DNA of 64,000 nucleotides. It comes from Escherichia coli. Its GTDB lineage: Bacteria; Pseudomonadota; Gammaproteobacteria; Enterobacterales; Enterobacteriaceae. Location: assembly GCF_022846255.1 (NCBI RefSeq), contig NZ_AP025682.1; one strand, given 5' to 3'. Position 1 is the stretch's first letter, and every line of letters starts with the position of its first letter. Below the pieces are notes generated by a model, which did not search any database, had not been told where the DNA came from, and saw only the letters and a program-made list of their open reading frames with translations. Of this stretch, positions 20,372 through 34,892 are shown piece by piece. Position numbers and translations under genes: made by a program.

Positions 20372-21871
20372 ATGCTAAATTTATTTGTTGGCCTTGATAT
20401 ATATACGGGGCTTTTGTTATTACTTGCTCTGGCATTTGTGTTGTTCTATGAAGCAATCAATGGTTTTCATGACACGGCGAATGCGGTGGCAACCGTTATT
20501 TATACCCGTGCCATGCAACCACAGCTTGCTGTGGTCATGGCGGCATTTTTTAACTTTTTTGGCGTATTGCTTGGCGGGCTTAGCGTTGCCTATGCCATCG
20601 TCCATATGTTGCCAACCGATTTGTTGCTGAATATGGGGTCAACCCACGGTCTGGCGATGGTCTTTTCCATGCTGCTGGCGGCGATTATCTGGAACCTGGG
20701 AACGTGGTTCTTTGGTTTACCGGCCTCCAGTTCGCACACTTTGATTGGTGCGATTATCGGCATTGGTTTAACCAACGCGCTGTTAAATGGTTCGTCGGTG
20801 ATGGATGCGTTAAACCTGCGCGAAGTCACCAAGATTTTCTCTTCACTCATTGTCTCTCCCATCGTGGGGCTGGTGATTGCGGGGGGGCTAATTTTTCTGC
20901 TACGCCGTTTCTGGAGTGGGACGAAAAAGCGTGACCGTATTCATCGTATTCCTGAAGATCGCAAAAAGAAAAAAGGCAAACGTAAGCCGCCATTCTGGAC
21001 GCGTATTGCCCTCATTGTTTCCGCTGCGGGCGTGGCGTTTTCGCACGGCGCGAACGACGGGCAGAAAGGAATTGGTCTGGTGATGCTGGTGCTGGTGGGG
21101 ATTGCTCCCGCCGGGTTTGTCGTCAATATGAATGCGTCCGGCTATGAAATTACCCGTACCCGCGATGCCGTCACCAACTTCGAACACTACCTGCAACAGC
21201 ATCCTGAACTGCCGCAGAAGTTGATTACGATGGAACCTCCATTGCCTGCGACATCGACTGATGGCACGCAAGTAACAGAGTTTCACTGTCATCCGGCAAA
21301 TACCTTTGATGCGATTGCGCGCGTTAAAACGATGCTGCCAGGCAATATGGAAAGTTACGAGCCGTTAAGCGTGAGTCAGCGCAGCCAGCTGCGCCGCATT
21401 ATGCTGTGCATCTCTGATACCTCCGCGAAGCTGGCGAAACTGCCAGGCGTCAGTAAAGAAGACCAGAACCTGCTGAAAAAACTGCGCAGCGATATGTTAA
21501 GCACCATTGAGTACGCACCGGTATGGATCATCATGGCGGTAGCACTGGCGCTCGGCATCGGCACCATGATTGGCTGGCGTCGTGTAGCGATGACCATCGG
21601 TGAGAAGATTGGTAAGCGCGGCATGACGTATGCGCAAGGCATGGCGGCACAAATGACGGCGGCAGTGTCTATCGGCCTTGCCAGTTATATTGGGATGCCC
21701 GTCTCCACAACACACGTACTCTCGTCTGCAGTAGCAGGGACGATGGTGGTGGACGGCGGTGGGTTACAGCGTAAAACGGTAACCAGCATCCTGATGGCGT
21801 GGGTGTTTACTTTACCGGCGGCGATTTTTCTTTCTGGTGGGTTGTACTGGATAGCATTGCAGTTGATTTAA
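20372..21871 (+). CDS. pitB: Low-affinity inorganic phosphate transporter (PiT family), 499 aa
   Basis: ORF-track protein; polytopic; length and neighbours (gss, yghT) match E. coli pitB. Confidence 0.92.
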
Positions 21872-21880
21872 CCTTCCTGA

Positions 21881-21917
21881 AAATGCCCGGTCCTGGCGAT
21901 CGGGCATTTCCATTTTT
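21881..21917. terminator. Terminator hairpin between convergent pitB and yghT
   Basis: aaatgcccg / cgggcattt stem followed by ccattttt. Confidence 0.55.
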
Positions 21918-21919
21918 CA

Positions 21920-22612
21920 CTAGTGATAACCACGCGCGGTCATAAAATCCGTAATCGCTTTTTCTGCATCAACCAGCACCTTTTCCAGTGGCTGATTGGC
22001 GTCGATATCAACCAGTTGTGCACCACCAAAGGTTAACTGTGGCGTTATGGCAATCTTCCTCGCCAGCGATTCCCGTTTATGGTCGGGTTTACGCGCGCAG
22101 GCAACTTCAAGGTCAACATTGAGTTTGATGACCAGATCGGGCTTGTGGCTCGCCATCCAGTGAAATGCTTTACGTTCCTGACTTGCCAGCCATGAGACAA
22201 AACGACCACCTTCAACGTTAGGCGGAAACACCGTACCATCATAAGCGCCAGGAATCTGGTCCTGCGGATAACGGTCGGTTAAAACAATTAACCCGCGACG
22301 ACGACAGGCAAGCATATGACGAAAGCGCAGTAAGCGACGGGCGACAAACGCTGTAATTACCAGCGCCGGAACTGGTCCAGGCAATTTTTTTGCTGTTTTT
22401 ACCTGATTTCGTTCAATTGTTTTATGTAAGGATTTTCCCATCAACGGTAATTTTGTCACTGCACGACCGACATTTCCGGCCTGTTTTCCTAAATGAACTC
22501 TTTCGGCAGCACCATATTTTTCGACAACGGTAATAAGATGTTCACACACCGTTGACTTGCCTGAACCATCGCTACCAATAACGGCAATTAATGGAGGTAT
22601 TATTGACTGCAT
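21920..22612 (-). CDS. yghT: P-loop NTPase of unknown function (paralogue of yghS/yghR), 230 aa
   Basis: Walker [10 protein letters not shown]; shared TDRYPQ and ARKPDH motifs with yghS and yghR. Confidence 0.85.
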
Positions 22613-22786
22613 GAATATATCCTTAAATTTAAATATCCATCCAAAATATTTATTTGGTTAATATGTTTTTGATGAAAGCGTAATTCAGGTCAATGTCACA
22701 ATTAACCATTGTCACAATAAGGTTGAACGGATATTCTGAGCACGGACCACGTAATATTCAATACATTATTTGCTGCCGGGTTTTTC

Positions 22787-23500
22787 GTGAATCAACGTAA
22801 TATGTCAATAATTAATTCCACGCCAGTGCGTGTTATTGCCATTGTAGGATGTGATGGTTCAGGTAAATCGACCCTCACGGCAAGCCTGGTAAATGAACTG
22901 GCAGCAACAATGCCAACAGAACACATTTATCTCGGGCAATCGTCCGGGCGAATTGGCGAATGGATTTCACAGCTCCCTGTTATTGGCGCACCTTTTGGGC
23001 GTTATCTGCGAAGTAAAGCGGCACATGTGCACGAAAAGCCCTCCACACCACCTGGCAATATTACTGCGCTGGTTATCTATCTGCTTTCCTGCTGGCGGGC
23101 GTACAAGTTTCGCAAAATGTTGTGTAAAAGCCAGCAAGGCTATCTGCTCATCACCGACCGCTACCCGCAGGTTGAAGTGCCGGGTTTTCGCTTTGATGGC
23201 CCGCAATTGGCAAAAACCACGGGCGGTAACGGTTGGATAAAAATGTTAAGGCAGCGCGAGCTGAAGCTGTACCAATGGATGGAGTCTTATTTGCCCGTAT
23301 TGTTGATTCGTCTTGGCATTGATGAACAAACCGCGTTTGCGCGTAAACCTGACCACCAACTGGCGGCGTTACAGGAAAAAATCGCCGTTACGCCGCAACT
23401 GACATTTAATGGCGCAAAGATCCTTGAACTGGATGGTCGGCAACCCGCCGATGAAATTCTGCAAGCGTCACTACGCGCAATTCACGCCGCGCTTTCCTGA
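22787..23500 (+). CDS. yghS: P-loop NTPase of unknown function, 237 aa
   Basis: GTG start; Walker A GCDGSGKST; TDRYPQ and ARKPDH motifs. Confidence 0.85.
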   Translation: MNQRNMSIINSTPVRVIAIVGCDGSGKSTLTASLVNELAATMPTEHIYLGQSSGRIGEWISQLPVIGAPFGRYLRSKAAHVHEKPSTPPGNITALVIYLLSCWRAYKFRKMLCKSQQGYLLITDRYPQVEVPGFRFDGPQLAKTTGGNGWIKMLRQRELKLYQWMESYLPVLLIRLGIDEQTAFARKPDHQLAALQEKIAVTPQLTFNGAKILELDGRQPADEILQASLRAIHAALS

Positions 23501-23531
23501 TCACCAAAATGGATAGGGGATGATTTAACGA

Positions 23532-24290
23532 ATGGACGCACTACAAACACAAACTGTTAATAGTACAACCGCGCCGCAGCCCAACTACATTCCGGGGCTG
23601 ATTGCGGTGGTCGGGTGTGATGGCACCGGTAAATCCACACTGACCACCGACCTGGTGAAATCGCTGCAACAACACTGGCAAACCGAGCGGCGCTATCTGG
23701 GGCTGCTCTCGGGCGAAGACGGCGACAAAATCAAACGATTGCCGTTGGTTGGCGTCTGGCTCGAACGGCGACTGGCGGCCAAATCCTCGAAAACCCAAAG
23801 CATGAAAACCAAATCTCCAGCGCTATGGGCGGCGGTGATTATGTACTGCTTCTCGCTGCGAAGAATGGCGAATCTACGCAAGGTTCAGCGACTGGCGCAA
23901 AGTGGCGTTCTGGTGGTCAGCGATCGCTTCCCGCAGGCTGAAATTTCGGGCTTTTATTATGACGGACCGGGGATCGGCGTCGAACGTGCGACCGGGAAAA
24001 TCAGCATGTTTCTGGCGCAGCGCGAACGGCGTTTATACCAACAAATGGCGCAACACCGTCCTGAATTAATCATTCGTTTGGGGATTGATATTGATACTGC
24101 CATCTCCCGCAAGCCTGACCATGACTATGCCGAGCTGCAGGACAAAATCGGCGTCATGTCGACGATTGGCTATAACGGCACAAAAATTCTTGAGATTGAT
24201 TCCAGAGCGCCCTACAGCGAAGTGCTGGAACAGGCACAGAAGGCGGTTTCTCTGGTTGCCATCGTTTCTGACCGCCGAAGTTTAACTTAA
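23532..24290 (+). CDS. yghR: P-loop NTPase of unknown function, 252 aa
   Basis: Walker A GCDGTGKST; SDRFPQ and SRKPDH motifs. Confidence 0.85.
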   Translation: MDALQTQTVNSTTAPQPNYIPGLIAVVGCDGTGKSTLTTDLVKSLQQHWQTERRYLGLLSGEDGDKIKRLPLVGVWLERRLAAKSSKTQSMKTKSPALWAAVIMYCFSLRRMANLRKVQRLAQSGVLVVSDRFPQAEISGFYYDGPGIGVERATGKISMFLAQRERRLYQQMAQHRPELIIRLGIDIDTAISRKPDHDYAELQDKIGVMSTIGYNGTKILEIDSRAPYSEVLEQAQKAVSLVAIVSDRRSLT

Positions 24291-24335
24291 GGCTGGCGGG
24301 ATACTTTTTACTATCAACGATAAGGTCAGGCTGAA

Positions 24336-25685
24336 TTGGCGGGTTTTAACATCAAACATTGGTTTGCAGATGGCGCGTTTCGCACCATTATTCGCAATAG
24401 CGCCTGGTTAGGCTCCAGTAATGTCGTGAGCGCTTTGCTGGGTCTGTTGGCGCTCTCGTGTGCCGGTAAAGGGATGACGCCCGCCATGTTTGGCGTACTG
24501 GTGATTGTACAATCGTACGCCAAGTCGATCAGCGATTTTATTAAGTTTCAGACATGGCAGCTGGTGGTTCAGTACGGAACACCAGCATTAACCAACAATA
24601 ATCCGCAGCAATTTCGCAATGTCGTCTCATTTTCCTTCTCGCTGGATATCGTCAGCGGCGCGGTGGCGATTGTCGGCGGCATTGCCTTACTCCCTTTTCT
24701 TTCCCATTCATTAGGTCTGGATGACCAAAGCTTTTGGCTGGCAGCGCTGTATTGCACGCTCATTCCTTCAATGGCTTCCTCCACGCCGACCGGCATTCTG
24801 CGTGCGGTAGATCGCTTCGATCTAATTGCTGTACAGCAAGCGACGAAACCTTTTCTGCGCGCAGCGGGGAGCGTCGTTGCCTGGTATTTTGACTTTGGTT
24901 TTGCGGGTTTTGTTATTGCCTGGTACGCCTCGAATCTTGTTGGCGGCACCATGTACTGGTGGTTTGCCGCACGTGAATTACGCCGCAGAAATATCCATAA
25001 CGCGTTCAAATTGAATCTGTTTGAGTCTGCCCGACACATCAAAGGCGCGTGGAGTTTTGTCTGGTCAACCAACATTGCCCATTCCATCTGGTCGGCGCGT
25101 AATTCGTGCAGCACAGTGTTGGTGGGGATCGTGTTAGGACCCGCTGCCGCCGGGTTATTTAAAATCGCCATGACATTCTTCGACGCCGCCGGAACGCCAG
25201 CGGGTTTACTGGGCAAAAGTTTTTACCCAGAGGTGATGCGTTTAGATCCGCGTACCACCAGACCGTGGTTGTTAGGCGTGAAGTCAGGTTTACTGGCGGG
25301 CGGAATCGGTATTCTGGTGGCGCTCGCGGTGTTGATTGTCGGCAAGCCGCTCATTTCGCTGGTGTTTGGCGTTAAGTATCTCGAAGCGTATGACCTGATT
25401 CAGGTGATGCTGGGCGCAATTGTGATCTCGATGCTGGGCTTCCCTCAGGAGTCATTGCTATTGATGGCGGGAAAACAGCGCGCTTTTCTCGTGGCGCAAA
25501 CCATCGCCTCAATCGGCTACATCGTATTGCTGTTCATGTTCTGTCATCTGTTTGGCGTGCTGGGAGCAGCGTTTGCTTATTTCGGCGGTCAATGTCTGGA
25601 TGTGGTGCTTTCGCTAATTCCGACCTTAAAGGCATTTTTTCAGCGCCATTCCTTGCTTTATAACGCAGCCGGAGAGAAATCCTGA
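24336..25685 (+). CDS. yghQ: Polytopic membrane protein, putative MOP-superfamily lipid/polysaccharide flippase; start uncertain (TTG 24336 or ATG 24474/24486)
   Basis: Long hydrophobic ORF with about 10-12 predicted TM segments; stop overlaps next gene start (ATGA). Confidence 0.7.
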   Translation: MAGFNIKHWFADGAFRTIIRNSAWLGSSNVVSALLGLLALSCAGKGMTPAMFGVLVIVQSYAKSISDFIKFQTWQLVVQYGTPALTNNNPQQFRNVVSFSFSLDIVSGAVAIVGGIALLPFLSHSLGLDDQSFWLAALYCTLIPSMASSTPTGILRAVDRFDLIAVQQATKPFLRAAGSVVAWYFDFGFAGFVIAWYASNLVGGTMYWWFAARELRRRNIHNAFKLNLFESARHIKGAWSFVWSTNIAHSIWSARNSCSTVLVGIVLGPAAAGLFKIAMTFFDAAGTPAGLLGKSFYPEVMRLDPRTTRPWLLGVKSGLLAGGIGILVALAVLIVGKPLISLVFGVKYLEAYDLIQVMLGAIVISMLGFPQESLLLMAGKQRAFLVAQTIASIGYIVLLFMFCHLFGVLGAAFAYFGGQCLDVVLSLIPTLKAFFQRHSLLYNAAGEKS

Positions 25686-26521
25686 TGATGAGAAAATATT
25701 TCCCGCTAGAGGCGAGCGAGCGTCTATTTGTTGCGATTGAAGAAGATGATGTCGTTGATGCACAGGTCAGTTTGCCGCCGACTATCGCACTAAGTTGTAC
25801 CACCGAAATCATCCATGATAATTACGCGTTATGCCTGCAATTCTGGCTCAATGGCGTCAATCGCCAGGAGTTACTGCGTTTAATATGCAAACAGGCCAAA
25901 GGCGATGAGCTGACTGCTGATGAGCGCAAACAATTTAAATACATGCGAGCGCGCTACAAGCACCTGCGTTTTGCGCAACGGCTGTATTTAAAGAAGCATC
26001 AGGCCGGATTTTTATTCGGCAAAACGACCGTTTTTTTGGGGCGTTTTCAGGATGGCTTTCGTAACGGTAAGAAAAATATTGTGTCGTTTTACAGTAACCT
26101 GTTACGTGTTTATTTGAGCTCCCCTGTCTGGTGGCTGGTGAACTATTCATTGCGCCATAGCCAGTTAGAAACCGTGAACGGTTTTATCGCCTACCGCCAG
26201 AAGCAAATGTACATCCTGAAAGAGATTATTGCTAAACCGCAACTAACTGGCAGGGAATTTCATGATGTGCGAAAAATCATCAGCCAGCAGGTTTCTTATT
26301 ACGACACCTTAAGATCGCTTGATCCTGAAAATAAAGAGGCGTTACTGATTTCCCGTTTTCTCGCCGCCATTAATGGTCTGATGGGGGATAAGCACGACGA
26401 CATGGTGGCGGATGATATGGAGAACCGCCGGTCATATGATGCACCGGTGGCGCTGGATAGCGATATTCGCCAGCGTTTAGAACTGCTTATTTCGCGTTTC
26501 CCACTCTATCCGGAGCAATAA
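25685..26521 (+). CDS. Hypothetical cytoplasmic protein, 278 aa, no family recognised
   Basis: ORF with GGAGAGA RBS 8 nt upstream; translationally coupled to yghQ and the next ORF. Confidence 0.65.
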   Translation: MMRKYFPLEASERLFVAIEEDDVVDAQVSLPPTIALSCTTEIIHDNYALCLQFWLNGVNRQELLRLICKQAKGDELTADERKQFKYMRARYKHLRFAQRLYLKKHQAGFLFGKTTVFLGRFQDGFRNGKKNIVSFYSNLLRVYLSSPVWWLVNYSLRHSQLETVNGFIAYRQKQMYILKEIIAKPQLTGREFHDVRKIISQQVSYYDTLRSLDPENKEALLISRFLAAINGLMGDKHDDMVADDMENRRSYDAPVALDSDIRQRLELLISRFPLYPEQ

Positions 26522-27081
26522 TGCCATCTCGTTGGATTTTCGCTCTGATCATCGCACTCTTAGCGCCAGGCGCGGCGGCACACAATTTCGTCACTGGCAA
26601 AACGGTTACCCCTGTTTATATCCAGGAAGGCGGCGAGCTGCTTCTGAATAGCGACGACGAAATTCACTACCAAAAGTGGAACAGCACACAATTGACGGGA
26701 AAAGTTCGCATTATTCAGTACATCGCCGGGCGTAAGTCGGCGAAGAAAAAGAACTCACTGTTAATTAAAGCGGTTGAAGCGGCAAACTTTCCGCAGGATC
26801 GTTTTCAGCCCACCACCATTGTGAACACTGATGATGCCATCTTTGGTACCGGCTATTTTGTCGTTGGCAAAATCGAAAAAAATAAACGCCGCTATCCGTG
26901 GGCGCAATTCGTTATTGACGGCAATGGACAGGGACGCGTTGCCTGGCACTTGCAGGAGCAGAGTTCAACCATTCTGGTGCTGAATAAAACCGGGCAAATT
27001 CAGTGGGCAAAGGACGGCAGCCTGACGCCGGAAGAGGTAGATCATGTCATTGCGCTGGCGCAGAAGCTGATCAATGAATAA
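26521..27081 (+). CDS. Hypothetical exported protein with N-terminal signal peptide, 186 aa
   Basis: N-terminus MPSRWIFALIIALLAPGAAAHNF resembles a Sec signal; ATG overlaps preceding stop (TAATG). Confidence 0.65.
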   Translation: MPSRWIFALIIALLAPGAAAHNFVTGKTVTPVYIQEGGELLLNSDDEIHYQKWNSTQLTGKVRIIQYIAGRKSAKKKNSLLIKAVEAANFPQDRFQPTTIVNTDDAIFGTGYFVVGKIEKNKRRYPWAQFVIDGNGQGRVAWHLQEQSSTILVLNKTGQIQWAKDGSLTPEEVDHVIALAQKLINE

Positions 27082-27110: not shown

Positions 27111-28181
27111 ATGAAGCTGGTTGAACACTACATCATGCGTGGTACGCGCCGTCTGGTGCTGATTATCGTCGGTTTTCTGATCTTTATTTTCGCCAGCTAC
27201 TCCGCACAGCGTTATCTGACCGAAGCGGCAAATGGGACATTAGCTCTTGATGTTGTGCTGGATATCGTTTTCTACAAAGTGCTGATTGCACTGGAGATGT
27301 TGTTACCTGTTGGACTGTATGTGTCAGTTGGCGTGACGCTAGGGCAGATGTATACCGACTCGGAAATTACCGCTATCTCTGCGGCGGGGGGCAGTCCGGG
27401 ACGCTTGTACAAAGCCGTTCTTTATCTGGCGATACCGCTAAGTATTTTTGTCACCCTTCTGTCGATGTATGGTCGTCCGTGGGCTTATGCGCAGATTTAT
27501 CAACTGGAGCAACAGTCACAGTCGGAGCTGGATGTTCGCCAGTTGCGGGCAAAGAAATTTAACACTAACGATAACGGACGAATGATCCTTTCGCAGACGG
27601 TTGATCAGGATAATAATCGCCTGACTGACGCGCTGATTTATACTTCTACTGCTAATCGAACCCGCATTTTCCGCGCCCGTTCGGTTGATGTGGTTGACCC
27701 ATCACCTGAGAAACCGACCGTTATGTTGCATAACGGGACCGCCTATCTTCTCGATCATCAGGGGCGTGACGACAACGAACAGATCTACCGTAATCTGCAA
27801 TTACATCTGAATCCGCTGGATCAAAGCCCTAACGTCAAACGCAAAGCAAAATCGGTCACGGAGCTGGCGCGCTCCGCCTTTCCTGCCGATCATGCCGAAC
27901 TGCAATGGCGACAAAGCCGTGGCCTGACAGCATTGTTGATGGCGCTGCTGGCCATTTCATTAAGTCGGGTAAAACCGCGGCAAGGGCGATTTTCAACGTT
28001 ATTGCCACTGACGTTGCTGTTTGTTGCCATTTTTTATGGCGGCGACGTCTGCCGTACGCTGGTGGCTAACGGCGCGATTCCCCTCATTCCTGGTTTGTGG
28101 TTAGTACCCGGACTCATGCTAATGGGCCTGCTGATGTTGGTCGCACGCGACTTCTCTTTGCTGCAGAAATTTTCCCGATGA
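27111..28181 (+). CDS. LptF/LptG-family (YjgP/YjgQ) permease-like membrane protein, 356 aa
   Basis: 3 TM + about 150-aa hydrophilic domain + 3 TM topology read from translation; N-terminus resembles LptF. Confidence 0.7.
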   Translation: MKLVEHYIMRGTRRLVLIIVGFLIFIFASYSAQRYLTEAANGTLALDVVLDIVFYKVLIALEMLLPVGLYVSVGVTLGQMYTDSEITAISAAGGSPGRLYKAVLYLAIPLSIFVTLLSMYGRPWAYAQIYQLEQQSQSELDVRQLRAKKFNTNDNGRMILSQTVDQDNNRLTDALIYTSTANRTRIFRARSVDVVDPSPEKPTVMLHNGTAYLLDHQGRDDNEQIYRNLQLHLNPLDQSPNVKRKAKSVTELARSAFPADHAELQWRQSRGLTALLMALLAISLSRVKPRQGRFSTLLPLTLLFVAIFYGGDVCRTLVANGAIPLIPGLWLVPGLMLMGLLMLVARDFSLLQKFSR

Positions 28182-29257
28182 ATGTTTTCAGTCGCTATTT
28201 AATCCGTCATCTCTTTCTCGGTTTTGCCGCCGCCGCAGGGCTATTGCTGCCGCTTTTTACCACCTTCAACCTGATTAACGAACTGGATGATGTCAGCCCG
28301 GGTGGTTATCGCTGGACTCAGGCGGTGCTGGTGGTGCTGATGACCTTACCGCGCACACTGGTCGAACTTTCGCCGTTTATCGCCTTATTGGGAGGGATTG
28401 TCGGCCTGGGGCAGTTATCGAAAAACAGTGAGCTTACCGCCATTCGCAGCACGGGGTTTTCTATCTTCCGTATTGCACTGGTGGCGCTGGTTGCCGGGAT
28501 ATTGTGGACTGTTTCATTAGGCGCGATAGATGAGTGGGTGGCGTCGCCATTGCAGCAACAGGCGCTGCAAATCAAATCGACTGCCACCGCGTTGGGGGAG
28601 GACAATGACATTATCGGCAATATGCTTTGGGCCAGGCGCGGTAATGAATTTGTGACGGTGAAATCGCTGAACGAGCAGGGCCAGCCGGTGGGCGTGGAGA
28701 TTTTTCATTACCGCGACGATCTCTCGCTCGAATCCTACATTTATGCGCGCAGTGCCACCATTGAAGACGATAAAACGTGGATCCTGCATGGTGTGAATTA
28801 TAAAAAATGGTTGAATGGCAAAGAAACGCTGGAAACATTAGATAATCTTGCCTGGCAATCGGCCTTCACCAGTATGAATCTTGAAGAGTTATCGATGCCG
28901 GGGAATACTTTTTCTGTCCGTCAGCTTAATCATTACATCCATTATTTGCAGGATACCGGGCAACCCAGCAGCGAATACCACCTTGCACTGTGGGAAAAAC
29001 TGGGGCAACCGATCTTGACTCTGGCGATGATTTTGCTGGCTGTGCCGTTTACCTTTAGTGTCCCGCGCTCGCCAGGGATGGGTAGCCGTCTCGCTGTAGG
29101 CGTCATCGTTGGTTTACTCACCTGGATCAGCTATCAAATCATGGTCAATCTGGGATTGCTATTTGCGTTGAGCGCACCTGTTACCGCGCTCGGTTTACCG
29201 GTAGCGTTTGTGCTGGTGGCGTTGAGCCTGGTGTATTGGTATGACAGACAACATTAA
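28178..29257 (+). CDS. LptF/LptG-family (YjgP/YjgQ) permease-like membrane protein, 359 aa
   Basis: ORF-track 386 aa trimmed to MNVFSRYLIRHLF; ATG overlaps upstream stop (ATGA); same 3+3 TM topology. Confidence 0.7.
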   Translation: MNVFSRYLIRHLFLGFAAAAGLLLPLFTTFNLINELDDVSPGGYRWTQAVLVVLMTLPRTLVELSPFIALLGGIVGLGQLSKNSELTAIRSTGFSIFRIALVALVAGILWTVSLGAIDEWVASPLQQQALQIKSTATALGEDNDIIGNMLWARRGNEFVTVKSLNEQGQPVGVEIFHYRDDLSLESYIYARSATIEDDKTWILHGVNYKKWLNGKETLETLDNLAWQSAFTSMNLEELSMPGNTFSVRQLNHYIHYLQDTGQPSSEYHLALWEKLGQPILTLAMILLAVPFTFSVPRSPGMGSRLAVGVIVGLLTWISYQIMVNLGLLFALSAPVTALGLPVAFVLVALSLVYWYDRQH

Positions 29258-29291: not shown

Positions 29292-30464
29292 TTACTGCTT
29301 CTGAGTAGCAAATGCCTGAATGATGGCATCGATTTGCTCACGACTGTGGGCAGCGTTTACGCTACAGCGCAGCAGCGTGATGCCAGCAGGCGCGGCAGGT
29401 GGCAGGATAAGATTCACATAAACGCCCAGCGAAATAAGCTCGCGCCAGATGCGTAAACCTTCCTCTTTCGAACCGATTATTACTGGCACTACCGGGCTAA
29501 TATGTGAACTTAACTCGTAACCCAGTTTTTGCAGACCGTCATACAGATGGTTGGCGTTATCCATCAGCTTTTGCCGCAGCTCTGGTTGTGAGGCAATGGT
29601 TCTTAACGACGAGCGCACGGTCGCAATGCAGGACGGAGAAGGAGAGGCGGTAAAAATATACGGGCGGCTGCCGTAGCGCAGCACTTCCATCGCTTCCGAA
29701 CCGACAGCAAAACCGCCAATCGAGGCCAGACTTTTACTGAAGGTGCCGACGATAATATCCACGTCGTCTTCAACGCCAACGGCTTCAACCAGTCCGCGCC
29801 CCGTAGCGCCTAACACGCCAAACGAATGTGCTTCATCGACAATCAAATAACCACCGAGACGACGTTTGATATCAACAATTTCTGCCAGCGGCGCAACGTC
29901 ACCGAGCATACTGTAGATGCCTTCAACGATAATAATCGCCTCTTTCGCCCGTTCACCGAGGCGGACCATGCGCCGTTCCAGATCGTTGACGTCATTATGG
30001 CGGAAACGAATAATCTCCGCGCCGCCGAGAGAACAGGCGTCATAAATACTGGCGTGGCTGTCGGCATCCAGTAACACCACGGCGTTATGGTCGGCAAGTG
30101 CGCTGATGACACCTAAATTAGCGGTATAACCGGTTGAAAAAACGATAGCGGTAGGGCGATTGAAAAACTCGGCAATCTCTTTCTCTAACGCCAGATGCGG
30201 CGCATAACTGCCGTTTGCCATACGAGAACCGGTGGTGCCGGTGCCTTGGGCCGCTAACGCTGCCTGACCTTCGCGGATAGCATCATGATTAAAGGTTAAA
30301 CCGAGATAATTATTGGTCCCGGCCAGAATCACTTTTTTATTGCCGATCCGGCCTTCGGTGGCGGAATATACTTCATCAATACAGGTGCCAAATGGTGTTA
30401 ACCCGTTGTCACTAAATTGCAGGCGCTCGCCAGCAAGGCGCGCATATTTATCGTATAGCCCCAT
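29292..30464 (-). CDS. PLP-dependent alpha-oxoamine synthase family acyltransferase (serine palmitoyltransferase / 8-amino-7-oxononanoate synthase-like), 390 aa
   Basis: PLP-lysine motif GTFSKSLAS and DEAHSFG; class-II aminotransferase fold inferred from translation. Confidence 0.8.
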   Translation of the reverse strand: MGLYDKYARLAGERLQFSDNGLTPFGTCIDEVYSATEGRIGNKKVILAGTNNYLGLTFNHDAIREGQAALAAQGTGTTGSRMANGSYAPHLALEKEIAEFFNRPTAIVFSTGYTANLGVISALADHNAVVLLDADSHASIYDACSLGGAEIIRFRHNDVNDLERRMVRLGERAKEAIIIVEGIYSMLGDVAPLAEIVDIKRRLGGYLIVDEAHSFGVLGATGRGLVEAVGVEDDVDIIVGTFSKSLASIGGFAVGSEAMEVLRYGSRPYIFTASPSPSCIATVRSSLRTIASQPELRQKLMDNANHLYDGLQKLGYELSSHISPVVPVIIGSKEEGLRIWRELISLGVYVNLILPPAAPAGITLLRCSVNAAHSREQIDAIIQAFATQKQ

Positions 30465-30712
30465 TATTTATTCTCCAGCCATGGAAGTAGAGTTTCCATT
30501 AATTGCGCAGGGGTTTTGACATCCAGCAGAATATTAATAGGAATGGAAATATCGAATCTGTCTTCCAGCATCATTAAGAGATCCATCACTTTGATCGACT
30601 CCAGGCCAAGATCGTTGACGAGATCGCTGTCGGGCTTAATTTCCACACCGTTTTCGACCAAATCCTGTAAACAGGAAAGGATGTAATCCATTACTATTTC
30701 ACGATTTACCAT
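30464..30712 (-). CDS. Acyl carrier protein, 82 aa
   Basis: Phosphopantetheine-attachment motif DLGLESIKVMDL; small acidic protein; stop overlaps next start. Confidence 0.8.
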   Translation of the reverse strand: MVNREIVMDYILSCLQDLVENGVEIKPDSDLVNDLGLESIKVMDLLMMLEDRFDISIPINILLDVKTPAQLMETLLPWLENK

Positions 30713-30743
30713 AGAAACGTTAACACACCTTTAAACAAGACAA

Positions 30744-31658
30744 TCAAAATAGCCCGTTGCGTAATGCGTGTTCCAGGCTAATCCCGGGAAACCAATTAAT
30801 ATCTTCAGAAATACGGTTATTACTTGCCGACCAGTCGGCATGAGTTAATTCACGGATTTTCGAACGAGTCAGCATCGGTTCTTTACCCGCCAGACGGCTC
30901 AACGCGGTACTGATATCCGCAAGGCAGGTGAGTAGCGGCAGAGGAATACCGACCATCCGCACGGAACCACAGCGGACATCGGCAACAAGCTGTTGGACAC
31001 GTTGCCAGTCATAGCCTCCGGCGACGCCATCGCATAATTCATAGGTTTGCGTCTGTACAGTTTCGGCGCTTAACCACTGACCCACTGCTTGCGCAAAATC
31101 GGTGACGTGAAGAAAAGAGAGCAGTGTCTCTGGCGTGCCAAGTCGTGGCAGCAGACCGCGCAGCATCCAGTCAAACAGCGGTTTTAACTCTTTATCGCCG
31201 GGACCATACACGGCTGTCGGGCGAAAAACGCCCAACGTAATTTCGTCAGCCATTGCAGTCAGCCGTTGTTCGGCGACGTGTTTGGAATTTGCGTACCAGG
31301 AGAGTTCGGGATGGCGCGCCGCCAGCGAAGAGATAAACAGAAAACGTTGGCAAAAGCCGCTCTCTTTTGCCGCTTGCATCAGGCGCAGGCTGCCGTCAAC
31401 GTTGCAGCGGGTAAAAATCTCTTCTTTGTGCCCGCGCACTTGCCCGGCGCAATGGACCACCGCGCTGGCTCCGGCAACCAGTTCGCTAAGCGAATGTGTA
31501 TCTTCCAGCGAACCGCGCACCCAAGTGAGATTATCATTGACGTGAGCGCGGGCAGTACGCGTCAATGCGCGAACGTGAAAGCCGCGGGCGAGCAGGTTAT
31601 CAATAATATATTTACCGATAAACCCGGTAGCGCCCGTCACCGCGACAGTTTGATTCAT
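30744..31658 (-). CDS. NAD(P)-dependent epimerase/dehydratase-family reductase (extended SDR), 304 aa
   Basis: ORF-track 374 aa trimmed to MNQTVAVTGATGFIGKY (Rossmann GxxGxxG); ATG overlaps upstream stop (ATGA). Confidence 0.78.
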   Translation of the reverse strand: MNQTVAVTGATGFIGKYIIDNLLARGFHVRALTRTARAHVNDNLTWVRGSLEDTHSLSELVAGASAVVHCAGQVRGHKEEIFTRCNVDGSLRLMQAAKESGFCQRFLFISSLAARHPELSWYANSKHVAEQRLTAMADEITLGVFRPTAVYGPGDKELKPLFDWMLRGLLPRLGTPETLLSFLHVTDFAQAVGQWLSAETVQTQTYELCDGVAGGYDWQRVQQLVADVRCGSVRMVGIPLPLLTCLADISTALSRLAGKEPMLTRSKIRELTHADWSASNNRISEDINWFPGISLEHALRNGLF

Positions 31659-33379
31659 GCCAGGGATTCCTGCACATGAAGACTGGCAGCATAAGCCTTC
31701 TGATAACGTTTTTTCGCTTCCGCACGGGCAGGCTTGCCGGAGGATGTTCGGGGAATACTGTGGGGCGGCAACAGATCGATATCCGCGGTAACGCCAAATT
31801 CGCTTTGGATCCGAGCTGCCAGCGCGTGGATAAGCTGCCCGCGACGTTCTTCGTCGCTGATCCGACACTGGATCTGCAAAATGATTTTTTCCTGGGCGGT
31901 AACAAAAGCAATCGCATCGCCAGAATGAATTTCCGGCTCCTGTTCCGCAATGTATTCAATATCCTGCGGCCAGATATTACGGCCACGAATAATAATCAGA
32001 TCTTTAATGCGTCCGGTGACATACAGATAACCGTCCAGCAGATAACCAAGGTCTCCGGTGTCTAACCAGCCCGTCGCGGCAATCTCGTCTTGCGAAACCT
32101 GGTCGCCAAAGTACCCGCTCATCAGGCTGGGGCCGGAGATGCAAATATGGCCTACCACACGTTCCGCGACAGGTATATCTGCTTCATTGCGGATTTCAAT
32201 GCCATGTTCCGGCAACGCTTTACCGCAGTTGACGAAAGTCGATACGGCGCGTGTTTCAGCACCCGGCGCGACGGCTTTACCCTGGTATTCGAGGATGTCG
32301 CGATCCACTTCGTTAACCACAACCCCGCAGGCTTCATCAGAGAAGCTGACAGCCAGCGCATTTTCTGCCAGTCCGTAGCACGGCATGAAAGTTTTATCGT
32401 CAAAGTTAACCTGACGGAAACATTCAGCGAATTGATGGAGTTGTTCTGCGGATATGGGTTCTGCGCCAATACCAGCGACGCGCCAGCAGGAAAGATCCAG
32501 TTCAGCGAGATCTTTTTCATTCACGCGGCGCTGGCACAATTCATAGCCAAACGGCGGTGCAACGGAAACGGTGCCACGATTTTTACTGATCAATTTAAGC
32601 CATTGCAGAGGACGCATGGCAAAATCCTGAGTGCGCAAATAATCTACTGAAAGCTGCGTGGCGACGGGGGTCAGGAGAAAGCCGACCAGTCCCATATCAT
32701 GGTAGAAAGGCAGCCAGGAGACGCAGCGGTCGCCAGGGCGTAATTTAATCCCATCGTGGCTTATAGCACGTAGATTAGCCATCACTTCGTGATGGGTGAT
32801 AATGACGCCACGGGGAAAACGGGTGCTGCCGGAGGTGTACTGGAGGTAGGCGATATCGTTTGGAACTGGACGCTGGAGCACAACATCGGCTTCCGGTAAT
32901 GCCTTAAACCAGGCGTGGCTTAAAACATGTAATTCGGGGTTGTTGTTATGCGTCGCGGCATTGACCAGTGGCAACCACTCATCACCAGTGATAATGGCTG
33001 CGGGCTGGCAACTTGCCAGTAAACCCTGCAGTTTGGCGCTCCAGGAATCCCGCTGACCTACGCCCATTGGAATCGCCAACGGGACGGCGACTAAGCCGGC
33101 ATACTGGCAGGCAAAAAAAGCCTCTACAAACCCGCTACTCGTTTCGGCAATCAGCGCCACGCGATCGCCTTTTTTCAGGTTCAGCGATAACAACCTTTTC
33201 GCACCAGCTTCGGCACGCGCTTTTAACGTCTGATATTCCAGTTGATCTTCAAGTTGGCAACGTCTGTCATAAAAATTCATTCCGGCGCTACTCAGAGCGG
33301 CGTAGTCCAAAGCATCAACCAGCGTTGGAAAATCGGCATAGCGCATAGGTAGGGAATGCGTAAAGATTTTATTAGACAT
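31655..33379 (-). CDS. Fatty-acyl-AMP ligase / acyl-ACP synthetase-like adenylating enzyme, about 574 aa
   Basis: AMP-binding motifs YTSGSTRFPRG and GRIKDLIIIRGRNIWPQDIE; start set at ATG 33379 (alternative TTG 33406). Confidence 0.8.
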   Translation of the reverse strand: MSNKIFTHSLPMRYADFPTLVDALDYAALSSAGMNFYDRRCQLEDQLEYQTLKARAEAGAKRLLSLNLKKGDRVALIAETSSGFVEAFFACQYAGLVAVPLAIPMGVGQRDSWSAKLQGLLASCQPAAIITGDEWLPLVNAATHNNNPELHVLSHAWFKALPEADVVLQRPVPNDIAYLQYTSGSTRFPRGVIITHHEVMANLRAISHDGIKLRPGDRCVSWLPFYHDMGLVGFLLTPVATQLSVDYLRTQDFAMRPLQWLKLISKNRGTVSVAPPFGYELCQRRVNEKDLAELDLSCWRVAGIGAEPISAEQLHQFAECFRQVNFDDKTFMPCYGLAENALAVSFSDEACGVVVNEVDRDILEYQGKAVAPGAETRAVSTFVNCGKALPEHGIEIRNEADIPVAERVVGHICISGPSLMSGYFGDQVSQDEIAATGWLDTGDLGYLLDGYLYVTGRIKDLIIIRGRNIWPQDIEYIAEQEPEIHSGDAIAFVTAQEKIILQIQCRISDEERRGQLIHALAARIQSEFGVTADIDLLPPHSIPRTSSGKPARAEAKKRYQKAYAASLHVQESLA

Positions 33380-33749
33380 ATACACCACGAAAAAATTGGA
33401 TATCAAAAATAAAATGACAATAATGCGGTGGATTATATAGGCATAAAAGATAAATGAGATAGTATTTTCATCGGTGTGAAAATGAACATTGATTTAAATA
33501 ATAAGTTTGGCTTTTTTGTTTTTATTGTGAATGATATTTAATTTGTGAATATATTAAGAAGGAGCCTTGTCCGGTCGCCTTAAATCGACAAGAGGCATTG
33601 TGGCGCTTCTGTGTAGTCTTTGACCTTATCGTAATCATTAATAAATACTATTTATTCTTTGTTTGTATTCATTGGGTTGATTATTAAGATGCCGTTCGTT
33701 GCTGTTGCAACCTGTTTTTCACCGTTAATTATTTGTTATCCACAGAGAT

Positions 33750-34892
33750 ATGGAATGCGATCTGCTGATGATTAAAATTGAAAAAGTAATTAATAAAAAA
33801 GACCTTAAGGCATTTATCGCTTTTCCGTCATCACTTTATCCCGATGATCCAAACTGGATACCCCCTTTATTCATTGAACGTAGCGAGCATTTGTCTGCGA
33901 AGAATCCGGGGACGGACCATATCATCTGGCAGGCGTGGGTGGCAAAAAAAGCGGGGCAGATAGTTGGGCGTATTACCGCGCAAATAGATACCTTGCACCG
34001 TGAGCGTTACGGTGAAGATACCGGTCATTTCGGAATGATTGATGCCATTGATGATCCGCAGGTTTTTGCCGCGTTGTTTGGCGCAGCGGAGGCGTGGTTG
34101 AAGTCACAAGGTGCAAGTAAGATCAGCGGGCCTTTCAGCCTGAATATCAATCAGGAAAGCGGATTACTGATTGAAGGTTTTGACACACCTCCCTGTGCGA
34201 TGATGCCACACGGCAAACCGTGGTATGCCGCGCATATTGAACAACTGGGTTATCACAAAGGCATTGATTTACTGGCGTGGTGGATGCAGCGAACCGATCT
34301 CACTTTCTCTCCGGCGCTAAAAAAACTGATGGATCAGGTGCGCAAAAAAGTGACCATTCGCTGCATCAATCGCCAGCGGTTTGCCGAAGAGATGCAGATC
34401 CTGCGTGAGATTTTCAATTCTGGCTGGCAGCACAACTGGGGATTTGTGCCGTTTACCGAACATGAATTCGCGACCATGGGCGATCAACTTAAATATCTGG
34501 TGCCGGACGATATGATCTACATCGCTGAGATTGATTCTGCACCCTGCGCGTTTATTGTTGGCTTGCCGAACATCAACGAGGCGATTACCGATCTGAACGG
34601 ATCGCTCTTTCCCTTCGGCTGGGCAAAATTGCTGTGGCGTTTGAAAGTCAGCGGTGTGCGAACTGCGCGAGTGCCGCTGATGGGCGTGCGGGACGAGTAT
34701 CAGTTCAGCCGCATCGGCCCGGTGATTGCGCTGTTATTGATTGAAGCCTTACGCGATCCGTTTGCCCGCCGGAAGATCGATGCGCTGGAAATGTCATGGA
34801 TCCTCGAAACCAATACAGGCATGAATAACATGCTGGAACGCATTGGGGCGGAGCCGTACAAGCGTTACCGATTGTATGAAAAGCAGATTTGA
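33750..34892 (+). CDS. yghO: Uncharacterised protein, possible N-acyltransferase; start uncertain (ATG 33750 or 33768), 380 aa
   Basis: ORF divergent from the lipid operon and convergent with glcC; symbol assigned by position relative to glcC from memory. Confidence 0.6.
   Translation: MECDLLMIKIEKVINKKDLKAFIAFPSSLYPDDPNWIPPLFIERSEHLSAKNPGTDHIIWQAWVAKKAGQIVGRITAQIDTLHRERYGEDTGHFGMIDAIDDPQVFAALFGAAEAWLKSQGASKISGPFSLNINQESGLLIEGFDTPPCAMMPHGKPWYAAHIEQLGYHKGIDLLAWWMQRTDLTFSPALKKLMDQVRKKVTIRCINRQRFAEEMQILREIFNSGWQHNWGFVPFTEHEFATMGDQLKYLVPDDMIYIAEIDSAPCAFIVGLPNINEAITDLNGSLFPFGWAKLLWRLKVSGVRTARVPLMGVRDEYQFSRIGPVIALLLIEALRDPFARRKIDALEMSWILETNTGMNNMLERIGAEPYKRYRLYEKQI

What the first reader, a model, noticed from the sequence alone, without database searches (positions are those of the whole stretch)
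21920..24290. Three paralogous P-loop NTPases (yghT, yghS, yghR) flanking a divergent promoter
All three proteins share Walker A G(S/C)DG(S/T)GKST, a (T/S)DR(Y/F)PQ motif and a conserved (A/S)RKPDH motif. Triplicated small kinase-like proteins at the head of a putative lipid-export operon could be substrate-specific kinases acting on a lipid or sugar head group. Their function is unknown.
Basis: partly seen in the sequence, partly recalled or inferred. Interest (0 to 1): 0.5.

Follow-up and report, generated by a model that had tools for sequence, protein, structure and literature searches.

The report
Three kinase paralogs beside ceramide genes
Three ancient, related kinase-like genes (yghT, yghS, yghR) lie in a gene cluster that makes and exports ceramide lipids and are found beside those genes in many other bacteria, so they most likely phosphorylate that lipid's head group, a step that has not been worked out.

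Summary
yghT (21920-22612, -), yghS (22787-23500, +) and yghR (23532-24290, +) are full-length paralogs (34-44% identity, E 2e-48 to 5e-61). They share GxDGxGKST, DR(Y/F)PQ and RKPDH.

The genes head the Escherichia ceramide locus: a MOP flippase (yghQ), a previously unannotated CHAD-fold protein, LptF/G paralogs, and spt-acpR-cerR-aasR-yghO.

Across 80 species loci the kinases fall into three clean orthogroups, so the triplication is ancient. All three keep their catalytic motifs and are under purifying selection. Ceramide genes lie within the stored flanks (up to 10 kb) in 33 of 35 enteric-type and 14 of 45 other loci. Natural S-R and T-R fusions exist. Outside the enteric-type loci, PAP2 lipid phosphatases are frequent neighbours.

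Best reading (confidence 0.45): they are non-redundant cytoplasmic kinases that build an anionic phosphate head group on ceramide before flipping and Lpt-type export. The substrate has not been shown, and I found no paper assigning them a function.

The parts
21920..22612 (-). yghT: TMPK-fold P-loop kinase-like protein, orthogroup T (230 aa)
   Evidence: ORF. Carries the Walker A, DRYPQ and RKPDH motifs. NCBIfam dTMP kinase scores 25 bits against a cutoff of 83. The T orthogroup has 63 members in 80 loci. dN/dS is 0.08.
22613..22786 (.). yghT-yghS divergent spacer (174 bp, 30% G+C), a presumed bidirectional promoter region; TGTCACAAT occurs twice (22694, 22710)
   Evidence: The promoter scan is not above chance. 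In K-12 a FlhDC SELEX peak falls in this spacer, and SlyA overproduction raises yghS 3.1-fold (PMC9962212; PMC5797941).
22787..23500 (+). yghS: TMPK-fold kinase-like protein, orthogroup S (237 aa)
   Evidence: The S orthogroup has 71 members. It is fused to an R-type domain in P0121 and P0040. dN/dS is 0.14.
23532..24290 (+). yghR: TMPK-fold kinase-like protein, orthogroup R (252 aa)
24336..25685 (+). yghQ: MOP (Wzx-like) flippase family membrane protein (449 aa)
   Evidence: NCBIfam MOP flippase family, E 1.4e-8. At least 7 hydrophobic segments. Found next to the kinases in 58 of 80 loci. Distant kinase relatives are fused to Polysacc_synt_3 flippases.
25685..26521 (+). Unannotated 278-aa protein with a CHAD fold (the fold of the polyphosphate-binding CHAD module)
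26521..27081 (+). YtfJ-family periplasmic protein (186 aa)
   Evidence: TIGR01626 scores 214 bits against a cutoff of 151. It has an N-terminal hydrophobic segment. Found in 33 of 35 enteric-type loci and in none of the others.
27111..28181 (+). LptF paralog (LptF2)
   Evidence: Annotation of the 99%-identical E. coli gene. The Caulobacter homologues LptF2/G2 are implicated in sphingolipid export and bind LptB (bioRxiv 10.64898/2026.04.12.717747).
28178..29257 (+). LptG paralog (LptG2)
29292..30464 (-). spt: serine palmitoyltransferase
   Evidence: Annotation. The E. coli B enzyme has been assayed (PMC9386255).
30464..30712 (-). acpR: specialised acyl carrier protein
30744..31658 (-). cerR/epi: NAD-dependent epimerase/dehydratase-family reductase of the ceramide pathway
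31655..33406 (-). aasR: acyl-AcpR synthetase (fatty acyl-AMP ligase). The ORF is intact here; the true start codon is uncertain.
33750..34892 (+). yghO: N-acyltransferase assigned as the bacterial ceramide synthase homologue (aca)

Best explanation
YghT, YghS and YghR are three soluble cytoplasmic phosphotransferases. They have the thymidylate-kinase/deoxynucleoside-kinase P-loop fold but are not nucleotide-salvage enzymes.

Together with the CHAD-fold protein and the MOP flippase YghQ, they form the head-group and flipping module of the Escherichia-type sphingolipid locus. The proposed sequence is:
1. Ceramide is made at the inner membrane by AasR, AcpR, Spt, CerR and YghO. This assignment comes from other groups: the E. 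coli B AcpR, AasR and Spt were assayed, and the cerR and yghO roles rest on their Caulobacter homologues.
2. The three kinases use ATP to put phosphate on the ceramide head group. They act either as three non-redundant steps or as S-R and T-R hetero-oligomers. The product would be ceramide phosphate, possibly extended to a di- or triphosphate that the basic CHAD protein binds. This step is inferred.
3. YghQ flips the anionic lipid to the periplasmic leaflet (inferred).
4. LptF2/G2, with the housekeeping LptB, extract it toward the outer membrane (inferred by homology to Caulobacter).
5. In non-enteric relatives, periplasmic PAP2 phosphatases trim or transfer the phosphates (inferred).
For: Fold and active site:
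- A family profile aligns GxDxxGKST, DRY and the lid Arg with TMPK sequences at E 6e-11.
- These motifs are at least 90% conserved in all three orthogroups.

They are not Tmk: the equivalog model gives 25-31 bits against a cutoff of 83, and there is no significant Pfam hit.

Ancient and non-redundant:
- 206 homologues from 80 species loci split cleanly into T (63), S (71) and R (70).
- dN/dS is 0.07-0.14.

Synteny:
- Spt and the other ceramide genes lie within the stored flanks (up to 10 kb each side) in 33 of 35 enteric-type loci and 14 of 45 other loci. The latter include Rhodanobacter, Luteibacter, Sulfuritalea, Gallionellaceae, Methylotenera and Rhodocyclaceae.
- In Rhodanobacter L037 the order is yghS-yghR-(OlsC/LpxO-like hydroxylase)-aasR-cerR-acpR-spt-yghQ-CHAD in one co-directional array.
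- A metagenomic S-R fusion sits beside spt/acp/epimerase/AMP-ligase genes.

Links to phosphorylated-lipid chemistry:
- The partner protein has a CHAD fold.
- PAP2 lipid phosphatases are adjacent in 21 of 45 non-enteric loci.
- LptF2/G2 or LptA-like genes are also adjacent.

Flippase coupling is general: distant relatives sit directly after a Polysacc_synt flippase or are fused to one.

Physical association: natural S-R, T-R and T-T fusions exist.

Envelope phenotype hints in K-12:
- Transposon mutants of yghQ, yghR, yghS and yghT are all listed among 50 vancomycin-resistant mutants, with mlaA/C/D, waa genes and galU (PMC9278758).
- Deleting yghQ doubles the chlorhexidine MIC (PMC8170033).

Precedent: Caulobacter decorates ceramide with anionic phospho-head groups, using an unrelated DAGK-type ceramide kinase, CpgB (PMC10331486; PMC9393093).
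Against: - There is no biochemical or lipidomic result for these proteins. I found no paper that reports the final lipid of this locus.
- The nearest structural relatives all act on nucleotides, not lipids.
- The three proteins have no predicted membrane segment and only weak amphipathic basic segments.
- 31 of 45 non-enteric loci show no ceramide gene within the stored flanks.
- More distant relatives lie in Wzx/Wzy polysaccharide loci, so the family's ancestral substrate may not be a sphingolipid.
- The K-12 phenotype hints occur in a strain that has lost the ceramide genes through IS5. The substrate there cannot be ceramide, or those hits are polar or plate artefacts.
- The DR motif does not distinguish a hydroxyl acceptor from a phosphate acceptor.
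- The locus appears to be H-NS-bound (flagged in PMC5797941), which suggests low expression in laboratory culture.
Confidence: 0.45

Rival explanations
1. The kinases phosphorylate a soluble head-group precursor or a nucleotide, for example NMP to NDP or a small acid or alcohol. Another enzyme then transfers the product to ceramide. They would belong to the sphingolipid pathway without touching the lipid.
For: The closest fold and sequence relatives are nucleotide kinases. The proteins are soluble. Caulobacter head-group synthesis uses nucleotide-activated intermediates (a cytidylyltransferase, CpgD, is cited; proposals in PMC11324152).
Against: The window's cluster has no CDP-alcohol transferase, nucleotidyltransferase or glycosyltransferase that could use such a precursor. 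Three separate precursor kinases would be excessive. The PAP2 and CHAD neighbours fit lipid or oligophosphate chemistry better.
Confidence: 0.2
2. They are generic kinases coupled to a flippase. They would act on another envelope lipid or lipid-linked glycan, such as phosphatidate, diacylglycerol or an undecaprenyl-linked intermediate. On this view the ceramide association is secondary.
For: Distant relatives sit in Wzx/Wzy polysaccharide loci directly after the flippase, or are fused to a flippase or a GT4. In Oecophyllibacter the kinase-like genes sit next to GT4 genes with no spt nearby. 31 of 45 non-enteric loci lack nearby ceramide genes. K-12, which lacks the ceramide genes, still gives envelope phenotype hints for yghQRST.
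Against: The three T, S and R orthogroups, as opposed to the 30-40% identical outgroup, are the ones tied to spt. In Rhodanobacter they are embedded in the same array as the ceramide genes. Taxa whose loci lack nearby spt include Sphingomonadales; in the two Sphingomonadaceae genomes analysed in the literature, sphingolipid genes are scattered (PMC9386255; PMC11324152).
Confidence: 0.15
3. They are ATPase or regulatory subunits that energise or gate YghQ or LptF2/G2, rather than kinases.
For: They are P-loop NTPases of about LptB size, encoded at the head of the transporter operon. Relatives are fused to the cytoplasmic end of MOP flippases. No lptB paralog is present in the locus.
Against: The fold is that of a small-molecule kinase with a DR motif and a lid, not an ABC fold. 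Pfam ABC_tran matches only the P-loop, about 27-33 residues at E 0.01-0.06 for YghS and YghT, and not YghR. In Caulobacter, LptF2/G2 co-purify with the housekeeping LptB. MOP flippases are not known to need ATPases (my own knowledge).
Confidence: 0.08
4. They are true thymidylate or nucleoside-monophosphate kinases, as RefSeq labels yghS and yghT ('dTMP kinase').
For: RefSeq product names. Weak hits to TIGR00041 and PF02223, and TMPK is the top fold match.
Against: The scores are 25-31 bits against a curated cutoff of 83.25, and Pfam E-values are 0.025-0.43. Identity to solved TMPKs is 15-21%. The substrate-side region is about 25-30 residues longer than in TMPK. E. coli already has an essential tmk (my own knowledge). 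The conserved envelope-lipid synteny has no rationale for nucleotide salvage.
Confidence: 0.03

Closest known systems
Thymidylate kinase (Tmk; PF02223 / TIGR00041), type II bacterial form
   Different: Scores lie far below the family cutoffs, and identity is 15-21%. The region between strand 2 and the DR strand is longer. The family-specific motifs DRxPQ, DGP and RKPDH are not TMPK motifs. There are three co-conserved paralogs in an envelope-lipid locus rather than a single housekeeping gene.
CpgB, the Caulobacter ceramide kinase (DAGK/LCB5-like, GGDG motif)
   Same: Sits at the same place in the pathway: a cytoplasmic, soluble enzyme encoded in a proteobacterial sphingolipid locus that turns neutral ceramide into an anionic lipid (PMC10331486, PMC9393093).
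   Different: The fold and motifs are unrelated: DAG-kinase-like rather than P-loop. CpgB activity has been shown biochemically; YghT/S/R activity has not. CpgB is a single enzyme followed by phosphoglycerate-adding enzymes. Here there are three kinases plus a CHAD protein and no Cpg genes.
PPK2 polyphosphate kinases
Lipid A / LPS phosphate decoration and export (LpxK, LpxT, LpxE/F, MsbA, LptB2FGC)
   Same: The overall logic matches: cytoplasmic phosphorylation of a lipid, flipping, periplasmic PAP2 enzymes that add or remove phosphates, and LptFG-type extraction to the outer membrane. LptF/G paralogs, an LptA-like gene and PAP2 genes are neighbours.
   Different: The lipid is presumably ceramide rather than lipid A. 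The flippase is MOP-type, not the ABC transporter MsbA. The kinases were not tested against LpxK.

Membership tests
Thymidylate kinase (dTMP kinase, TIGR00041 / PF02223) | Whole-protein score at or above the curated NCBIfam equivalog cutoff (83.25 bits), or a significant Pfam PF02223 match | tested here: not met
   TIGR00041 gives 25.4 (T), 24.5 (S) and 30.6 (R) bits. PF02223 i-Evalues are 0.43, 0.025 and 0.18.
Thymidylate kinase (dTMP kinase, TIGR00041 / PF02223) | P-loop GxxxxGK(S/T), DR(Y/H) motif and lid-region basic residues | tested here: met
   GxDGxGKST, DR(Y/F)PQ and RKPDH align to the TMPK P-loop, DRY motif and lid region.
Thymidylate kinase (dTMP kinase, TIGR00041 / PF02223) | dTMP-to-dTDP activity and thymine-specific binding residues | not testable with these tools
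   Needs an enzyme assay. The model coordinates could not be inspected residue by residue.
P-loop small-molecule kinase fold (NMP kinase / dNK-like) | Five-stranded parallel sheet with a P-loop and lid; a top structural match to family members | tested here: met
   [not shown]
ABC-transporter ATPase (LptB-like) | Full ABC domain with a signature motif, not only a Walker A | tested here: not met
   Pfam ABC_tran matches only about 27-33 residues around the P-loop (E 0.0097 for YghS, 0.056 for YghT, none for YghR). No ABC protein appears near the top of the fold searches.
PPK2 polyphosphate kinase | Match to the PPK2 family model, or closest structural similarity to PPK2 | tested here: not met
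   [not shown]
DAGK/LCB5-type lipid kinases (CpgB, YegS) | DAG-kinase catalytic domain with a GGDG motif | tested here: not met
   No such Pfam or NCBIfam hit. The fold is P-loop. The CpgB features come from PMC10331486.
Known anti-phage defence proteins (PADLOC) | Significant match to a defence-system model | tested here: not met
   The best E-values are 2e-4 to 9e-3 and cover the P-loop only.
CHAD domain (PF05235), for the neighbouring 278-aa protein | Two-lobed all-helical CHAD fold with conserved His and basic residues | tested here: met
   [not shown]
CHAD domain (PF05235), for the neighbouring 278-aa protein | Binding of inorganic polyphosphate | not testable with these tools
   Needs a binding assay.

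The most novel reading that the evidence does not exclude
The three TMPK-like enzymes are lipid-phosphate kinases that extend a phosphate chain on a membrane lipid: ceramide to ceramide-P, then ceramide-PP and possibly ceramide-PPP. In K-12, which has lost its ceramide genes, the substrate could instead be phosphatidate, giving diacylglycerol pyrophosphate.

The CHAD-fold protein would hold the oligophosphate. A MOP flippase, a family that normally handles pyrophosphate-linked lipids, would flip the product. PAP2 pyrophosphatases would trim it in the periplasm.

This would be a new class of surface lipid (a sphingolipid pyrophosphate) and a lipid-phosphate kinase of a kind I know of no described example of.
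Probability: 0.15. Interest if true: 0.85.

Novelty: new variant of a known kind. Interest (0 to 1): 0.62.

Why it matters
Of 5426 complete E. coli genomes, 4068 carry at least 80% of the hyp278-to-aasR part of the ceramide locus and 4603 carry yghTSR. The laboratory strain K-12 lost most of the locus through IS5. This probably explains why the genes are still 'y-genes' mislabelled as dTMP kinases.

The final lipid made by this locus, and its head group, are not known. In Caulobacter, anionic sphingolipids set polymyxin sensitivity, detergent resistance and virulence, and allow life without lipid A. Those head groups are made by different enzymes.

Identifying YghT/S/R, the CHAD protein and YghQ as the alternative head-group module gives a short, directly testable list of genes. 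They bear on an open question: what sphingolipid do E. coli, Serratia, Erwinia, Citrobacter, Rhodanobacter and many beta- and gammaproteobacteria put on their surface? It also corrects a widespread annotation error.

Tried and rejected
- Pfam on each kinase gave only P-loop-level hits. PADLOC gave nothing meaningful, so a defence-system reading was dropped.
- dTMP kinase membership was rejected on the curated cutoffs.
- The ABC-ATPase reading was rejected on fold and on the extent of the match.
- The sigma-70 and terminator consensus scan of 21800-24400 was not above the shuffled expectation. I therefore do not claim a mapped promoter.
- The roughly 250-aa N-terminal domain of the roughly 500-aa distant relatives has no PDB sequence hit, alone or as a profile. 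It has no relation to the CHAD family (hhalign probability 0.8%). Its GxTDxD...D...HxHxH pattern suggests a nucleotidyltransferase-like fold from memory only; this was not tested.
- Literature searches for yghR/S/T, yghQ, b-numbers and 'ceramide pyrophosphate/diphosphate' gave no functional study. One search was spoiled by word-start matching.
- I first took the conserved helix Arg (YghR R111, aligned with the TMPK 'SANR' Arg) as evidence for a phosphate acceptor. I withdrew this because, as I recall, that Arg contacts the thymine base in TMPKs.
- Hydrophobic-moment analysis for membrane-binding helices was weak and is not relied on.
Full report
**1. The observation**

The window is Escherichia DNA; the region is 98.8% identical to E. 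coli chromosomes, where the genes are annotated yghT, yghS and yghR.

They are true paralogs over their whole length:
- T/S: 36% identity, E 3e-53.
- S/R: 44% identity, E 5e-61.
- T/R: 34% identity, E 2e-48.

All three carry G(S/C)DG(S/T)GKST, (T/S)DR(Y/F)PQ and (A/S)RKPDH.

The divergent arrangement is real: a 174-bp spacer of 30% G+C separates yghT and yghS. A promoter is not demonstrated, because the consensus scan is at the shuffled expectation. yghS, yghR and five further genes are co-directional, with gaps of 45 bp or less or overlapping stop/start codons.

**2. What the proteins are**

Pfam finds nothing beyond the P-loop. The RefSeq label 'dTMP kinase' rests on a weak match: TIGR00041 gives 25-31 bits against a curated cutoff of 83. 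PADLOC gives nothing.

A 47-sequence alignment (A2) gave a confident AlphaFold model of YghR, with pLDDT 89 and pTM 0.85. Its best structural matches are:

A profile of the family hits TMPK sequences in the PDB at E 6e-11. It aligns the P-loop, DRY motif and lid.

The proteins form a separate family, with their own motifs (DRxPQ, DGP, RKPDH) and a longer segment between strand 2 and the DR strand. They have no predicted membrane segment and are basic, with net charge +9 to +13.

**3. Surroundings in the window**

Downstream of yghR lie:
- yghQ, a MOP/Wzx-family flippase;
- an unannotated 278-aa gene;
- a YtfJ-family periplasmic protein;
- paralogs of LptF and LptG.

Convergent to these are spt, an acyl carrier protein gene, an epimerase-family reductase and a fatty acyl-AMP ligase. 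yghO follows.

[quoted passage not shown] It did not discuss the kinases (PMC9386255).

In Caulobacter, the LptF2/G2 paralogs of the sphingolipid locus form a complex. They bind the housekeeping LptB, and their deletion is tolerated only without sphingolipid synthesis (bioRxiv 10.64898/2026.04.12.717747).

Caulobacter makes its anionic head groups with unrelated enzymes. These are CpgB, a DAG-kinase-like ceramide kinase, followed by CpgA/C and others (PMC10331486, PMC9393093, PMC11324152). None of these occurs in this window.

**4. The unannotated neighbour is a CHAD-fold protein**

Its family (alignment A3, 22 sequences) has invariant Arg, Lys and His in the motifs RAxxKHLRxA, GxLQDxF, FHxxRKxxS and NGLMGxxHD. 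Sequence searches fail for the window copy. One member hits Pfam CHAD at 2.6e-5.

CHAD domains are described as inorganic-polyphosphate-binding modules. That statement comes from my own knowledge of the literature, not from a test here.

**5. Relatives elsewhere**

An exhaustive profile search finds 2159 cluster representatives at E of 1e-3 or better.

A scan of one genome per species returned 321 confirmed loci, of which 80 were kept. They span:
- Enterobacterales: Hafnia, Citrobacter, Serratia, Erwinia, Pantoea, Rahnella, Rosenbergiella and others;
- Xanthomonadales/Lysobacterales;
- many Betaproteobacteria;
- Sphingomonadales and Acetobacter;
- Myxococcales.

I mapped the window's proteins onto these loci with tblastn.

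| Gene | Enteric-type loci (of 35) | Other loci (of 45) |
|---|---|---|
| yghT | 35 | 29 |
| yghS | 35 | 41 |
| yghR | 35 | 41 |
| yghQ | 34 | 24 |
| CHAD gene | 33 | 18 |
| spt | 33 | 14 |

Further points from these loci:
- yghS and yghR are adjacent and co-directional almost everywhere, and yghT is usually divergent.
- In Rhodanobacter L037 the order is yghT | yghS yghR (OlsC/LpxO-like acyl hydroxylase) aasR cerR acpR spt yghQ CHAD, one uninterrupted array.
- 206 kinase homologues cluster into exactly three groups: T 63, S 71, R 70. The triplication is therefore old.
- Each group keeps the catalytic motifs, but the groups differ in the loop after strand 2.
- The Escherichia genes evolve under purifying selection, with dN/dS 0.07-0.14.
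- Natural fusions S-R (P0121, P0040), T-R (P0122, P0029) and T-T (P0123) exist. The S-R fusion lies next to spt/acp/epimerase/AMP-ligase genes.

**6. Further recurrent neighbours outside the enteric-type loci**

- An OlsC/LpxO-like lipid acyl 2-hydroxylase occurs in 17 of the 80 genome loci (12 non-enteric, 5 enteric-type), in most cases directly after yghR.
- PAP2 phosphatases occur in 21 of 45 non-enteric loci. One type is a membrane protein resembling PgpB and SepP. The other is a roughly 180-aa protein with a signal peptide and the PAP2 KxxxxxxRP / PSGH / RxxxxxHxxxD signature.
- LptA-like genes occur in 5 loci.

PAP2 genes and the YtfJ-family gene are complementary in distribution. PAP2 is in 0 of 35 enteric-type loci, and YtfJ in 0 of 45 others.

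**7. More distant relatives**

These are 30-40% identical and fall outside the three orthogroups. They are mostly about 500-aa proteins with an unannotated N-terminal domain. They are followed by a second TMPK-like gene and sit immediately after a Polysacc_synt flippase in Wzx/Wzy polysaccharide loci. Some are fused to the flippase or to a GT4.

Coupling to a flippase is thus a property of the wider family. The sphingolipid association is a property of the T, S and R orthogroups.

**8. Population and expression hints**

- Of 5426 complete E. coli genomes, 4603 carry at least 80% of the yghTSR query stretch (21500-24700) and 4068 carry at least 80% of the hyp278-to-aasR stretch.
- K-12 has an IS5 in place of that part and a truncated yghQ.
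- In K-12, SlyA overproduction raises yghS 3.1-fold, and the gene is flagged as H-NS-bound (PMC5797941).
- A FlhDC SELEX peak lies in the yghS-yghT spacer (PMC9962212).
- Transposon mutants in yghQ, yghR, yghS and yghT all appear in a list of 50 vancomycin-resistant mutants, alongside mlaA/C/D, waa genes, galU and tolC (PMC9278758).
- Deleting yghQ doubles the chlorhexidine MIC, and yghQ mutations recur in two of three chlorhexidine-adapted lines (PMC8170033).

These hints point to the envelope. They come from a strain without ceramide genes, and they could be polar or plate-position effects.

**9. Interpretation**

Shown here:
- The fold and the conserved catalytic motifs.
- Non-membership of the Tmk equivalog.
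- Three ancient orthogroups under purifying selection.
- Conserved synteny with ceramide, flippase, CHAD, Lpt-paralog and PAP2 genes.
- Natural fusions between the orthogroups.

Inferred:
- The three proteins phosphorylate the ceramide head group in the cytoplasm.
- The product is flipped by YghQ and exported by LptF2/G2.
- Three enzymes mean three steps or a hetero-oligomer.

The idea that they extend a phosphate chain rests on three indirect points: TMPKs phosphorylate a phosphate, CHAD is a polyphosphate-binding fold, and PAP2 enzymes act on lipid phosphates and pyrophosphates. I rate it at about 0.15. No paper in the library mentions ceramide pyrophosphate.

The rivals are listed with their weights in the Rival explanations section: soluble precursor kinases, generic flippase-coupled kinases for another lipid or glycan, transporter ATPases, and true dTMP kinases.

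**10. Verdict**

The proteins are a new variant of a known kind: a new family of TMPK-fold kinases in a new pathway context. Interest is moderate to high. The locus is common in E. coli, its product is unknown, the current annotation is wrong, and the proposed experiments are simple.

Noticed in passing
[not shown]
   Followed up: yes
window 29292-34892: A complete, intact ceramide gene set (spt, acpR, cerR, aasR, yghO). In E. coli EC12 (L001) aasR is frameshifted. In K-12 (L090) an IS5 replaces everything from the CHAD gene to aasR and truncates yghQ to 355 aa.
   Followed up: partly
window 22694-22718 (yghT-yghS spacer): Two copies of TGTCACAAT lie 16 bp apart, each within a near-palindrome ATTGTcACAAT. 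TTGTnACAA sits at the same offset (95) in the spacers that keep the same 171-173 bp length in other Escherichia, Hafnia paralvei and Citrobacter amalonaticus. This may be an operator. Nine of 100 shuffles of the window also gave at least 2 matches.
   Followed up: partly
loci L004-L083 (for example L047 5957-7374, L053, L058, L067): The distribution is complementary. A YtfJ-family periplasmic protein occurs in 33 of 35 enteric-type loci and in none elsewhere. PAP2 phosphatases (one membrane type and one with a signal peptide) occur in 21 of 45 non-enteric loci and in no enteric-type locus.
   Followed up: partly
P0163, P0168, P0178 and others; L084 5721-9482; P0269, P0223, P0244: Distant relatives of about 500 aa carry an unannotated N-terminal domain of about 250 aa. 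Its invariant residues are G37, D40, D42, D78, H91 and E136 (numbered on P0168), with H93 and H95 nearly invariant, and its motif is YCHWKSNxHL..GxTDxDxLV. It has no Pfam, NCBIfam or PDB sequence match. These genes are followed by a second TMPK-like gene. Some are fused to Polysacc_synt_3 flippases or to a GT4 glycosyltransferase.
   Followed up: partly
window 20372-21871 (pitB) and loci L008, L010, L011, L014, L068: The phosphate:H+ symporter gene pitB lies convergent to yghT. It keeps that position in Hafnia, Citrobacter and Pseudocitrobacter. A strong bidirectional terminator-like hairpin at 21881-21909 separates the two genes.
   Followed up: no
L037 10742-11500; also L002, L038-L041, L045, L067, L080: An OlsC/LpxO-like lipid acyl 2-hydroxylase gene sits directly after yghR in many non-enteric loci. 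It is absent from this window's cluster. This predicts 2-hydroxylated acyl chains in those taxa but not here.
   Followed up: partly
L005, L006, L007 (other Escherichia lineages), CHAD and ytfJ-like genes: The CHAD and YtfJ-like proteins are only 85-90% identical to the window's copies, where neighbouring proteins are mostly 92-99%. My automatic ORF extension flagged in-frame stops in the CHAD gene of these three loci. I did not check whether this is a frame artefact or real decay.
   Followed up: no
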